A stretch of DNA of 15,444 nt from Armatimonadota bacterium (GTDB taxonomy: Bacteria > Armatimonadota > Hebobacteria > CAIYQO01), in NCBI GenBank assembly GCA_038248345.1, contig JBBRXO010000068.1, positions 1 through 15,444 on the forward strand. The letters are read 5' to 3'. Positions 6,001 to 9,000 of this stretch are shown in pieces (within the stretch, counting starts at the first letter, position 1; every line of letters starts with the position of its first letter). The position numbers were made by a program.

Positions 6001-9000
6001 GTACGCAAAACTTGGGGATGTGGGAACAACCGAAATTATTAGTGCCATACATGGTGAAACGTTTATGTGCATATATTGATACCAAAGATGACTTCTACTT
6101 TATCAACGTTACTACCGGCGGGTACGGCATTCTGTGTAACACCAAATATGCTTCACTTCAATACTTGTGTGGACTACTAAACTCGCGTCTACTTGGCTTT
6201 GCATTACGTCATTACTCTACGGACTTCCGTGGTGGTTATATTGCTGCAGGCAAGCAGTTTCTTGACAAACTTCCCATCCGCACCATCGACTTCGCCAACC
6301 CGGCGGAGGTGGCGTTGCATGAGCGCATGGTGGGGCTGGTGGAGACGATGCTGGCGTTGCAGCAGCAGCTGTCCGCCGCCACGCTGGAGCAGGGGCGCGA
6401 GCAACTGCGCCGCCGCATAGAGGCCACCGACGCGCAGATTGACGCGTTGGTGTACCAGCTATACGGGCTGACGGAGGCGGAGATAGCGGTGGTGGAGGGT
6501 CTTTAGGTCTTTAGTCTCTTCTCGGTTATTTTCTGAACAACTTGTAGAGAATGAAGCAAGTTTTTAATGCCGGGTGGTGCAGAGAAGTCGTCCTCTATCG
6601 TTGTAATTCACAGGATATATGGATAATAGAGGATTATGAGGATAAGACAAACAGGGAAGTATTATCTCAAAATATTATTCTACCTTCTTATCCTGACTAT
6701 CCTCTTTATCCTTAAATCCTGTGAATTAAAGCGTTAGGGCATGATGCCAAGCCTTAGCGCGGCCCCGCTAAGGTATACAAATATTTAACCACGGAGTGGC
6801 GGTCAGGTAGCGCCCTTCAGTGTGCTTGATCTTATAGCCACATCCTTTAGGGTGTGGTGAACGTTTCCGCCACCCTTTCAGGGCGGAGATAATTAATGAT
6901 GCTCTAACCCGGCGCTTGCGCACCGGGCTAAAATGCGCCACCCCTTCGGGGTGGGACGCGCGCCAATGCGTAGATTGGCGTTCCCAGGGGGTGACAGAGA
7001 TGAAATGCTGCCATTGATCTTGACAATGACGCTTAAGTAGGATATTTTATACTGTAACTACTATAGACTGTGGCGGATGTTAGACGGTTACACCGGCTAA
7101 CATCCTTTTTTTGTGAGTCAATGCGGAGGAGTAAACGTGGGCAGTACCGTTATTGTGGGCACCCAATGGGGTGACGAGGGTAAAGGGCGTGTGGTGGATG
7201 TATATGCCGCCAACGCGCTAGTTGTGCGTTTCCAGGGTGGGGACAACGCCGGGCATACGGTGAAGATCGGGGAGCAGTCGTTCGCGCTGCATCTGATCCC
7301 ATCCGGTATCGTGCGCGAGCGCCCGTGCGTGCTGGGCAACGGCATGGTGATTAATCCCAAGTCGTTGCTGAAAGAGATCGCTGATCTGGAGGCCAAGGGG
7401 ATCAACGCCCGTCCGCATATCCATATCAGCGAAGATGCGCACCTGATTATGCCGTACCATCTGGCGCTGGATGCCGCGAGCGAGCGCGCCATGGGCAAAG
7501 GCAAAATCGGCACCACACTGAAGGGCATCGGCCCCGCTTACACCGATAAATACAGCCGTGTCCACGGTCTCCGCATGGGTGACCTGCGCAATGCTGATTA
7601 TTTCCGCACGCGTCTGGAGGCTATCGTCGCCGACAAGAACGACGTGCTGACGAAACTGTATGACTGGGAGACCACCTTCTCCGCAGATGAGATTTTCGAC
7701 GAGTACATGAAGTACTACGAAGAGATCAAGTCGATGATCTGCGACACCGCCGAGATGATCTGGCAGGCGATTCAGCGTGATGAAGAGGTGCTTTTTGAAG
7801 GCGCCAACGCCACCATGCTGGATATTGATCACGGCACCTACCCGTATGTCACCTGTTCGACACCGACCGCTGGCGGGGCGGCTGTCGGCTCTGGCGTCGG
7901 CCCTGGCTATCTGGGCAATGTCATCGGGGTAGTGAAAGCCTACACCAGTCGCGTGGGCTAGGGGCCTTTCCCCACCGAATTAAATAACGCCACCGGCGAG
8001 CGTATCCGCGAGCTGGGGCATGAGTACGGCACCACCACCGGGCGTCCGCGCCGTTGCGGCTGGCTGGATATCTGTGTGCTGCGCAAAGCAGTGCGCGCCA
8101 ACGGGCTGGCCTATATGGCGCTCACCCATCTGGATGTTATGGGCGAATTCGACGAGATCCCTCTCTGTGTGGCCTATGAGATTGATGGCAAACGGGTGGA
8201 TACCTTCCCCAGTTCATTGTGGGAAGTGGAACGTGCCGTGCCGATCTATGAGATCATGCCCGGCTGGAAGACATCGCTGGATGATTGCCGTTCCTATGCT
8301 GACCTGCCGGTAGAAGCGAAGGCGTACCTGGATCGTATTGTCGAGTTGACCGGAGTGCCACTCTGTATGGTCACTGTGGGCAGCGAGCGTAATCAGACGA
8401 TTATTCTACGCGATGCCTCTACTATGTAGTCACTTCACGCCCGGAGACTTGCTCTTCGGGCGTCGTTTCAGCTGGTCTCCCAGGCCGCAAACGCAACTTT
8501 TTCCGCTCGCTGGTGTTTAATAATATATAACTCGGTGTAAAACCGTCAGGGAATTTGTTACTAACTATGAAGATCTTCGCTAAATTATTGCTCATCTGTA
8601 CTTGCTGTTGTATGTTGCTGGCGCCACTAGCCGTGCTGGGAGAAGACCCCCCCAAGCCGTTGCAGATTGATGCAACCGCCAATGGCTGGACTGTCAGCGC
8701 CATCAACGTAGATGCCCATGAGTTGTTGACTTCGCTGGCGGCAAGCGCTCATATGCAGATGATCGTCGATGACACCGTGCGCCGGCAGGTGACCATCCAT
8801 ATTATTGATCGTCCGGCATTGGATATTCTGAAGATAGTCGCTAATGTCTACGGTTTTTCCACGGCAGAGATCAACGGAGTGCAGTTGGTCTCGGAGGGAG
8901 CGCCGCGTTCCCCGGCTTCCTATTTGCTGTCGGATATCACCACTATCTCGACGAAGTTCGTTACTCCTGACTCGGCGCGGGCCTTATTACCGTCGTTTTT

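What a model noticed while it worked through the whole genome (the two positions that open the first line are those of the whole stretch)
7020..7136. purA leader: GTP/ATP start-site-switching attenuator
The purA promoter is followed at fixed distance by GTAACTG, which is complementary to CGGTTAC inside an intrinsic terminator before the gene. Starting at G (position 6 after the -10) would keep the full antiterminator, starting at A (position 8) would lose it, so the leader likely reads the GTP/ATP ratio through start-site choice and expresses adenylosuccinate synthase when GTP is high and ATP low. No purine gene is known to be controlled this way.
Evidence so far: 11 of 11 genomes examined (this one and 10 family relatives) have TTGACA-N17/18-TAnnnT-N5-GTAACT and a terminator; the partner is CGGTTAC in 8, CGGTTGC (G-U) in 2, CGGTTTC in 1, while the rest of the stem covaries. 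Duplex energy -6.6 to -8.2 kcal/mol for the G start vs -1.6 to -3.2 for the A start in 10 of 11. No Rfam purine element here (rna.tsv). Paper searches 98, 99 empty.
(Added by a program. Inside this text positions count along the whole contig: contig position 1 is position 1 of the stretch shown here. "Call 12" and the like, gene names such as g00115 and contig names such as C1 are that model's own, and its searches are not shown. The text may have been shortened before it was handed on; [...] marks where a part breaks off. The agent that wrote the report below was given it as the finding of a first reader that could run no searches.)

Follow-up and report, generated by a model that had tools for sequence, protein, structure and literature searches.

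The report
Start-site-switched purA attenuator
In front of the gene that begins AMP synthesis lies a conserved short leader whose first bases match the loop of a predicted transcription stop hairpin, so the polymerase's choice between a G start and an A start two bases later would likely switch the gene on when ATP is scarce, with no regulatory protein.

Summary
The element is real: sigma70-type promoter, five bases, GTAACT, then a terminator whose loop holds the complement (12 of 12 family leaders, Armatimonadota). Corrections: this window has GTAACTA (6 pairs, not 7); the strict -10 holds in 10 of 12 leaders; yeast IMD2 is a known purine gene under start-site control. The helix has no compensatory change within the family. 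New support: the partners of G6 and U7 lie in the terminator loop (11 of 12); a two-base start shift lowers the computed barrier to termination by 4-5 kcal/mol (12 of 13); G6-T7-A8 recurs at purA in three further PurA clades (background 6 of 288 promoters), two with a matching partner; a streptococcal promoter of this geometry has a mapped G6 start with minor starts 1-2 bases on. Against: no start is mapped here, other families of the phylum show no significant complementarity, and some begin directly with the hairpin. Best reading (0.55): a switch read mainly by low ATP. The scan noted the same idea before on other DNA (e1-9819053, e1-7665476). New variant of a known kind.

The parts
7020..7025 (+). 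-35 hexamer TTGACA
   Evidence: present in 12 of 12 family leaders
7043..7048 (+). -10 hexamer TATTTT, 17 nt after the -35
   Evidence: TAnnnT in 10 of 12, TATAAC/TATAAA in 2
7054..7054 (+). G6, predicted upstream start (pyrimidine before it in 12 of 12)
   Evidence: invariant; inferred start, not mapped
7056..7056 (+). A8, predicted downstream start, followed by a second A
   Evidence: invariant; inferred start, not mapped
7054..7060 (+). 5' strand of the predicted antiterminator (GTAACTA here, GTAACTG in the other 11 leaders)
7075..7083 (+). terminator lower stem, 5' arm (GGATGTTAG)
7085..7091 (+). partner CGGTTAC: apical stem strand CGGT (7085-7088) plus loop TAC (7089-7091)
7092..7105 (+). 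terminator 3' side: ACCG (apical) and CTAACATCC (lower stem)
7106..7112 (+). T7 tract of the predicted intrinsic terminator
7125..7131 (+). Shine-Dalgarno-like GGAGGAG
7137..8429 (+). purA, adenylosuccinate synthetase; in-frame TAG at 7959-7961 in the assembly, read as GAG in contigs of two public runs
   Evidence: PF00709 E 7e-109; TIGR00184

Best explanation
The leader is likely a protein-free attenuator in which RNA polymerase would start either at G6 or at A8 after the -10 box, and only the G6 transcript is predicted to hold the 5' end paired to the terminator loop long enough to let purA be transcribed. Shown in sequence: promoter, invariant Y-GTAACT, hairpin with U tract, the complement in its apex, and the partners of G6 and U7 in the loop, where the terminator's 3' arm cannot compete for them. 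Inferred steps: (1) position 7, the usual start, is a T, so initiation splits between G6 and A8; (2) A8 is the default, being cheaper by about 1 kcal/mol if E. coli energetics apply, and needs ATP for its first two bases, whereas G6 needs GTP and UTP; (3) the A8 RNA pairs only 4-6 bases, the apical stem displaces it, the terminator zips and transcription stops; (4) when ATP falls relative to GTP, G6 starts rise, the 6-8 pair helix forms before the apical 3' strand leaves the polymerase, blocks nucleation of the hairpin during the pause at the U tract, and purA is made. The trap is kinetic: at equilibrium the terminator wins for either start.
For: Invariant 5' hexamer and CGGTT partner are, with the stem base GATG, the most conserved leader columns. 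Partners of G6 and U7 unpaired in the terminator fold in 11 of 12 leaders. Nascent-RNA ensembles with the apical 3' strand exposed: helix probability 0.41-1.00 for G6 versus 0.00-0.96 for A8, gap 0.4 or more in 10 of 12. Barrier from 5' helix to terminator 9.3-14.9 (G6) versus 4.3-9.9 kcal/mol (A8), gap 4.1-5.0 in 12 of 13. Own 5' end fits own terminator best of 14 families; strongest of 16 promoter-plus-terminator leaders in this genome. In this genome purines peak at position 7 (0.65) and G at 6 is 0.11 of 197 promoters; GTA at 6-8 is 6 of 288. G6-T7-A8 recurs at purA in three further PurA clades; the tree of 139 proteins needs at least 5 changes across well-supported branches: 5 of 30 leaders of family f29, three with GTAAAA(A)C matched by GTTTTAC or GTGTTTTTTGC; 16 of 24 rows of a distant metagenome clade, GTAC(A/G)C matched by GTGTGC or GTGTAC; 7 of 7 streptococcal-type rows. 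The inner bases differ between clades and the partners differ to match. S. agalactiae gbs1859, promoter TATAAT-aaggt-G, has its mapped major start at G6 and minor starts 1 and 2 bases downstream; position 6 is used in 2 of 66 scored rows of the table part read (PMC4448216 supplement). Position 6 costs 1.8 and position 8 costs 0.7 kcal/mol for E. coli polymerase (PMC5730371). Sister families show the mirror at guaB-like genes: A at position 6 in 14 of 18 promoter calls, against G at 6 in 15 of 15 purA promoters. No shared regulator among flanking genes of 10 family loci, no Bacillus-type PurR domain found in this 96%-complete genome.
Against: No start site, termination or nucleotide response is measured in any member. 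No compensatory change in the family helix; of its four single changes two keep pairing (U-G), one breaks pair 2 (G004) and one breaks pair 7 (this window). G004 and G007 show little start effect in the ensemble test, G004 also in the barrier test. The lower stem could form as a pseudoknot with the 5' helix in place, a route the folding program cannot score. Without this family the phylum shows no significant 5'-end/terminator fit (p 0.13 and 0.36, 13 families). Seven of 64 phylum leaders, plus two of family f6 seen by eye, begin the hairpin within about 3 bases of position 6, leaving no room for an antiterminator, and there a G start would favour termination. The stem-base sequence GGAT..ATCC is kept across many families, which start-site choice does not explain. 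The distant metagenome clade has no U-tract terminator, its partner is kept in sister clades that lack the matching 5' end, and the streptococcal GUAAG is unpaired in the folds, so the shared head need not mean one mechanism. At gbs1859 G6 is the major start, not a minority one, and its identity as purA is recalled. The own family's guaB-like genes gave no usable sigma70-type promoter, so the mirror test failed there.
Confidence: 0.55

Rival explanations
1. The start is fixed at G6. The promoter senses GTP as initiating nucleotide, and the 5' helix is a built-in partial antiterminator whose success depends on elongation speed or on the pause before the G that follows the U tract.
For: G at position 6 without A8 in many relatives: 15 of 15 in f2/f4/f5, 30 of 30 in f29 of which 25 lack A8. 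Mirror A6 at guaB-like genes. G6 is the major mapped start at gbs1859. GTP-initiated promoters respond to GTP level in Firmicutes (PMC13170274 passage).
Against: Does not explain why T7-A8-A9 is invariant, why the first two bases pair exactly with the loop, or why a two-base shift changes the barrier by 4-5 kcal/mol. A terminator always opposed by the same helix adds little control.
Confidence: 0.2
2. A protein or small RNA binds the conserved hairpin (GGAUG/CAUCC here, GGAUAGC/GCUAUCC in other families) or the single-stranded motifs and decides termination, as PyrR or GlpP do.
For: Stem-base sequence kept across the phylum, with its purA copy found in all 5 genomes searched and only modest counts of the looser pattern elsewhere. 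Leaders that begin with the hairpin need some other way to be read through. Invariance without covariation is what protein recognition gives.
Against: No common regulator beside purA in 10 family loci; no Rfam protein-binding leader; the conserved 5' motif sits at a fixed distance from the -10 while the spacer to the hairpin varies from 10 to 21 bases.
Confidence: 0.13
3. The 5' helix acts after transcription, by hiding the mRNA 5' end from decay or tuning translation, and the terminator only damps output at a constant rate.
For: The distant clade with a GUAC head and partner has no terminator. That paired 5' ends resist decay is recalled knowledge.
Against: In the finished RNA the terminator hairpin wins by 8-19 kcal/mol and frees the 5' end, so the helix can only be transient.
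Confidence: 0.07
4. The complementarity is chance, kept by descent in one family.
For: 26 of 285 ordinary promoters give as long a 5' helix; the family is one lineage.
Against: Both strands stay nearly invariant across PurA proteins 76-95% identical while neighbouring stem bases turn over; same head with matching partners in two other clades.
Confidence: 0.05

Closest known systems
Bacillus subtilis pyrG attenuator (PMC7039003, introduction read)
   Same: No protein; the nucleotide pool changes the 5' end of the RNA; the longer 5' end pairs with the terminator and lets the biosynthetic gene be read.
   Different: pyrG lengthens the end by slippage on GGG before C at low CTP. This leader has no G run (GTAA), so the length change must come from start choice; the target is the terminator apex and loop; the gene is for a purine.
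Start-site switching at E. coli/Salmonella pyrC and pyrD (details recalled; general statement that start choice depends on substrate level seen in PMC5730371)
   Same: Two starts two bases apart at positions 6-9; the longer RNA makes a 5' helix that the shorter cannot.
   Different: There the helix hides the ribosome site and turns the gene off at high CTP; here it is predicted to block a terminator and turn the gene on.
E. coli codBA and upp (titles seen in the reference list of PMC6245113; details recalled)
   Same: Choice between a G start and an A start decides the fate of the transcript.
   Different: Read-out is slippage on a T run, sensed nucleotide is UTP; this leader has no such run and uses a terminator.
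Yeast IMD2 (and possibly ADE12) initiation switch (PMC2525842 passages)
   Same: Purine gene; G versus non-G start chosen by nucleotide level; one start leads to early termination.
   Different: RNA polymerase II scanning between separate upstream and downstream initiators, Nrd1-Nab3 protein termination, and the G start is the terminated one; no RNA pairing.

Membership tests
pyrG-type reiterative attenuator | Run of three G at the start followed by the sensed base | tested here: not met
   GTAA in 12 of 12 leaders
pyrG-type reiterative attenuator | Intrinsic terminator in the leader | tested here: met
   hairpin plus U tract predicted in 12 of 12, stem covaries; termination itself not measured
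pyrG-type reiterative attenuator | 5' end able to pair with the 5' side of the terminator | tested here: met
   6-8 contiguous pairs in 11 of 12; no compensatory change
pyrG-type reiterative attenuator | Non-templated bases at the RNA 5' end | not testable with these tools
   needs RNA 5'-end reads of a family member
pyrC/pyrD-type start-site switch | Two candidate starts with different bases within positions 6-9 | tested here: met
   Y5-G6-T7-A8 in 12 of 12; sequence only
pyrC/pyrD-type start-site switch | Measured shift of start with nucleotide pools | not testable with these tools
   needs 5'-end mapping; only a like promoter in another phylum has mapped G6 and minor downstream starts
pyrC/pyrD-type start-site switch | 5' helix hides the ribosome-binding site (recalled) | tested here: not met
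   partner 7085-7091 lies 34 bases before the Shine-Dalgarno-like site, inside the terminator
codBA/upp-type switch | T run after the start that causes slippage (recalled) | tested here: not met
   no T run in GTAACT
Rfam riboswitches and leaders (purine, PyrR and others) | Match to a covariance model | tested here: not met
   none in the leader, in 20 class loci, in 20 short phylum loci at E up to 1 apart from one chance miRNA hit, or on the purA leaders of 7 further loci
Protein-dependent attenuator (PyrR, GlpP type) | Dedicated RNA-binding regulator | tested here: inconclusive
   none shared within 1.5 kb of purA in 10 family loci (41 of the 106 ORFs listed were scanned); an unlinked one is not excluded

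The most novel reading that the evidence does not exclude
A G-T-A start at position 6 of purA promoters is a recurrent bacterial ATP gauge: polymerase picks G6 or A8 by nucleotide supply, and different lineages read the two-base difference through different RNA folds (a terminator loop in this family, other helices in family f29 and a distant clade). Sister families (GAGGAA start, C-run loop) would reach the same result by G slippage before AA, and guaB promoters carry the mirror A start, giving protein-free cross-balancing of ATP and GTP.
Probability: 0.3. Interest if true: 0.85.

Novelty: new variant of a known kind. Interest (0 to 1): 0.66.

Why it matters
Bacterial nucleotide sensing by the polymerase at the start site is textbook for pyrimidine genes; the purine side is credited to repressors and riboswitches (own knowledge). 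A 60-base leader that joins start-site choice directly to a terminator, at the IMP-to-AMP branch, would add the missing purine case and a new pairing of two known parts. It is cheap to test with purified polymerase, and the same G6-T7-A8 head in three other clades, one with a mapped start at a like promoter, suggests it is not a local oddity.

Tried and rejected
No RNA holder listed for this stretch; only DNA contigs could be laid. Metagenome and viral scans with PurA gave no family members, but their loci served as outgroups. Pyrrolysine reading of the in-frame TAG rejected: no PylS over cut-off in 31 genomes, no CUA-anticodon tRNA, GAG in read contigs; of the five other TAG flags, the one that could be checked (L017) lies at the gene end. 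Alternative -10 TATACT (7048-7053) considered: 22 bases from TTGACA and its last T is C in 5 of 12 leaders, so rejected. DNA operator reading of GTAAC..GTTAC rejected: spacing varies from 20 to 31 bases. By-eye cross-family covariation inside the phylum (f4, f13, f25, f45) did not survive the permutation test (6 of 70 leaders dropped beforehand because the hairpin picked was not the promoter-proximal one or was weak; f13 had no promoter call). Regulon search: the -10-N4-YGTAACTG pattern is at chance level outside purA in 5 family genomes. One search used wrong columns and is superseded. Literature: searches listed no bacterial purA start-site attenuator; two reviews could not be opened; one search did not confirm gbs1859 as purA.

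Full report
What is there. The window holds a sigma70-type promoter (TTGACA 7020-7025, 17 bases, TATTTT 7043-7048), five bases, GTAACTA from 7054, a hairpin 7075-7105 with a T7 tract, and purA from 7137. The hairpin folds at -18.3 kcal/mol, beyond all 200 shuffles. CGGTTAC (7085-7091) is its apical strand plus the three-base loop. The in-frame TAG at 7959 is GAG in contigs of two public runs of one study, and the leader is unchanged in them (one run may be the source sample), so purA is probably intact. A same-phylum PurA is named Armatimonadota. No Rfam family matches the leader.

The family. purA was found in 11 of the 12 family genomes, twice in one. All 12 leaders have TTGACA, 17 or 18 bases, a hexamer (TAnnnT in 10, TATAAC and TATAAA in 2), five bases ending in a pyrimidine, and GTAACT; L445 from a pattern scan is a thirteenth. 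The invariant columns are the 5' hexamer, GATG, CGGTT and two bases of the 3' arm. The terminator stem covaries in 6 of 12 pairs. The 5' helix does not: 5 of 8 pairs never vary, one goes U-A to U-G twice, and there is no change on both sides. One helix of this length is not rare by itself (26 of 285 ordinary promoters give 7 or more pairs), but purA ranks first among the 16 of 288 promoters of this genome that have a terminator-like hairpin, and the family's 5' end fits its own terminator better than those of 13 other families.

How it would work. In this genome purines peak at position 7 after the -10 (0.65) and G at 6 is 0.11 of 197 promoters. Here position 7 is T, flanked by G6 and A8, each preceded by a pyrimidine. 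For E. coli polymerase position 6 costs 1.8 and position 8 costs 0.7 kcal/mol (PMC5730371, passages), so A8 would be the default. A8 is followed by A9, so that start needs ATP twice; G6 needs GTP and UTP (inference). The partners of G6 and U7 are loop bases in 11 of 12 leaders, so the two extra bases pair where the terminator cannot compete. With the apical 3' strand exposed, the helix probability is 0.41-1.00 from G6 and 0.00-0.96 from A8, with a gap of 0.4 or more in 10 of 12; G004 and G007 are the exceptions. The computed barrier from helix to terminator is 9.3-14.9 kcal/mol from G6 and 4.3-9.9 from A8, a gap of 4.1-5.0 in 12 of 13. The terminator is 8-19 kcal/mol more stable than the helix state even from G6, so the control must be kinetic, and the program cannot score a pseudoknot in which the lower stem forms with the helix in place. 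The sign fits the enzyme: adenylosuccinate synthetase spends GTP to send IMP towards AMP (established knowledge), so it is wanted when ATP is low and GTP is high.

Beyond the family, for. On a PurA tree of 139 rows, 40 have G-T-A at positions 6-8; they fall in four clades plus one single row, with at least 5 changes forced by well-supported branches (rows without a promoter call count as 'no'). The background is 6 of 288 promoters. In family f29, G6 is in 30 of 30 leaders and GTA in 5; three of these have a 7-11 pair partner (GTTTTAC twice, GTGTTTTTTGC once, the last ending in a hairpin loop), two have none. In a distant metagenome clade (46-48% identity to the window's PurA; acidobacterial by my recall, untested) 16 of 24 rows have GTAC(A/G)C, all 16 with a 6-11 pair partner, mostly ending GTGC or GTAC. 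Streptococcal-type loci have TATAAT-N5-GTAAG. In S. agalactiae the promoter TATAAT-aaggt-G of gbs1859 starts at G6 with minor starts one and two bases on, while 42 of 66 scored rows of the table part I read start at position 7 and 2 at position 6 (PMC4448216, passages and supplement file 7 part 15; one supplement file was unreadable). That gbs1859 is purA is recalled; it agrees with the same promoter stretch at purA locus L326 and a 1,417-base unit with an 89-base leader, but one search did not confirm it, and the bases at the minor starts are taken from L326. In sister families of the class, purA has G at 6 in 15 of 15 and guaB-like genes have A at 6 in 14 of 18 promoter calls (29 loci read, 11 without a call).

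Beyond the family, against. Of 128 purA leaders of the phylum, 104 gave a promoter and 70 also a terminator-like hairpin. After dropping 6, the fit of 5' end to own terminator is significant only with this family included (p 0.023 and 0.078; without it 0.13 and 0.36). Seven of the 64, and two f6 leaders by eye, start the hairpin at the start site, where no antiterminator fits and a G start would favour stopping. A GGAYRGC..GCYRTCC stem is kept in many families and echoes this family's GGATG..CATCC, which hints at a factor or pause signal not explained by start choice. The distant clade has no U-tract terminator and its partner persists in sister clades without the matching head; the streptococcal head is unpaired. 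No common regulator lies beside purA in 10 family loci and no Bacillus-type PurR domain was found in this genome, which weakens but does not remove the protein reading.

Sister families. The 14 GAGGAA-type leaders (f2, f5, one of f4) have a run of four or more C at the terminator loop. Their templated ends show little or no start effect in most, while 2-4 added G pair with the run in 13 of 14. Any G run would do so, so this is a lead for a pyrG-like slippage before AA, not a result.

What is known. The closest systems are B. subtilis pyrG (PMC7039003, introduction read), pyrC/pyrD and codBA/upp (details recalled; titles seen in the reference list of PMC6245113) and yeast IMD2, with a possible like switch at ADE12 (PMC2525842, passages). 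The leader works like pyrG in its output and like pyrC in its input, and fails a defining feature of each. Searches listed no bacterial purine case; two reviews were not held and most subscription papers are outside the library, so absence from print is not shown. PMC13170274 (passages) gives the GTP-initiation rival. The scan's own notes hold the same idea for two other genomes; they are unchecked and not counted as support.

Verdict. A real conserved attenuator-like leader; start-site switching read mainly by ATP shortage is the most likely mechanism (0.55), fixed-start GTP sensing (0.2) and a protein factor (0.13) are the main rivals. New variant of a known kind, interest 0.66.

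Noticed in passing
window 7959-7961: In-frame TAG in purA where relatives have mostly Glu; contigs of two public runs read GAG, so likely an assembly error; no pyrrolysine system found.
   Followed up: yes
L013-L024, L179, L180 (purA leaders of families f2, f4, f5): Invariant GAGGAA start, a variable first hairpin, a conserved GGCTCAAATGG..CCATTTGGGC hairpin with a C-run loop, and GTTTCCCCC after the U tract; no Rfam match; candidate G-slippage attenuator.
   Followed up: partly
L194, L244, L256, L272, L198 and other phylum purA leaders: Promoter-proximal hairpin (T)GGAYRGC..GCYRTCC(A) with a weak U tract in many families; one has a 36-base hairpin inserted in the loop; some begin at the start site.
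   Followed up: partly
L118-L128 (pyrG leaders of the own family): Conserved 5' ATCCC(A/G)(G/A)GC that pairs with a downstream GC(C/T)(T/C)GGG (CCCAGGC/GCCTGGG versus CCCGAGC/GCTCGGG) and competes with a second hairpin; upstream GCAGGA..GAA(T/A) looks like an alternative-sigma promoter; a possible CTP-side counterpart.
   Followed up: partly
L150-L177: Most of the class lacks a TIGR01302-type guaB (2 of 31) and has a shorter IMPDH-family gene (30 of 31 match PF00478); in f2 its promoter reads C5-A6-A7-T-T.
   Followed up: partly
L052:1317-1446 and 15 like loci (alignment A3): Structured purA leader of a distant clade, GTACAC paired with GTGTGC about 65 bases on, no terminator; L080 and L052 not run against Rfam.
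   Followed up: partly
L326:427-500, L330, L102, L076: Streptococcal-type purA leader with a conserved GCAGG-TGARANT-CCTGC hairpin and a second hairpin before the start codon; no Rfam match on the leader at E up to 0.1.
   Followed up: partly
L523, L525, L526, L534, L546 (family f29): G6-T7 followed by 4-6 A: could couple the start choice to ATP slippage, as codBA does with UTP.
   Followed up: no
L212, L213, L216, L218-L222 (family f10): A second conserved element after the hairpin, TTCGCCTCCGAATCCCCT..GGAGGGAAAAGGGAGG, no Rfam match in the four loci scanned.
   Followed up: no
window 6908-6953: Acido-Lenti-1 RNA match at the gathering score, among several palindromic repeats between the restriction gene and the purA promoter.
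   Followed up: no
window 8555-13142: Three tandem ORFs after purA that look like secretins; the first matches PF00263.
   Followed up: no
window 3360-6506: Single-chain restriction-modification gene (Eco57I-type methylase domain) between an Rrf2 gene and purA; in the same-genus genome Rrf2 lies next to purA, so it looks inserted.
   Followed up: no
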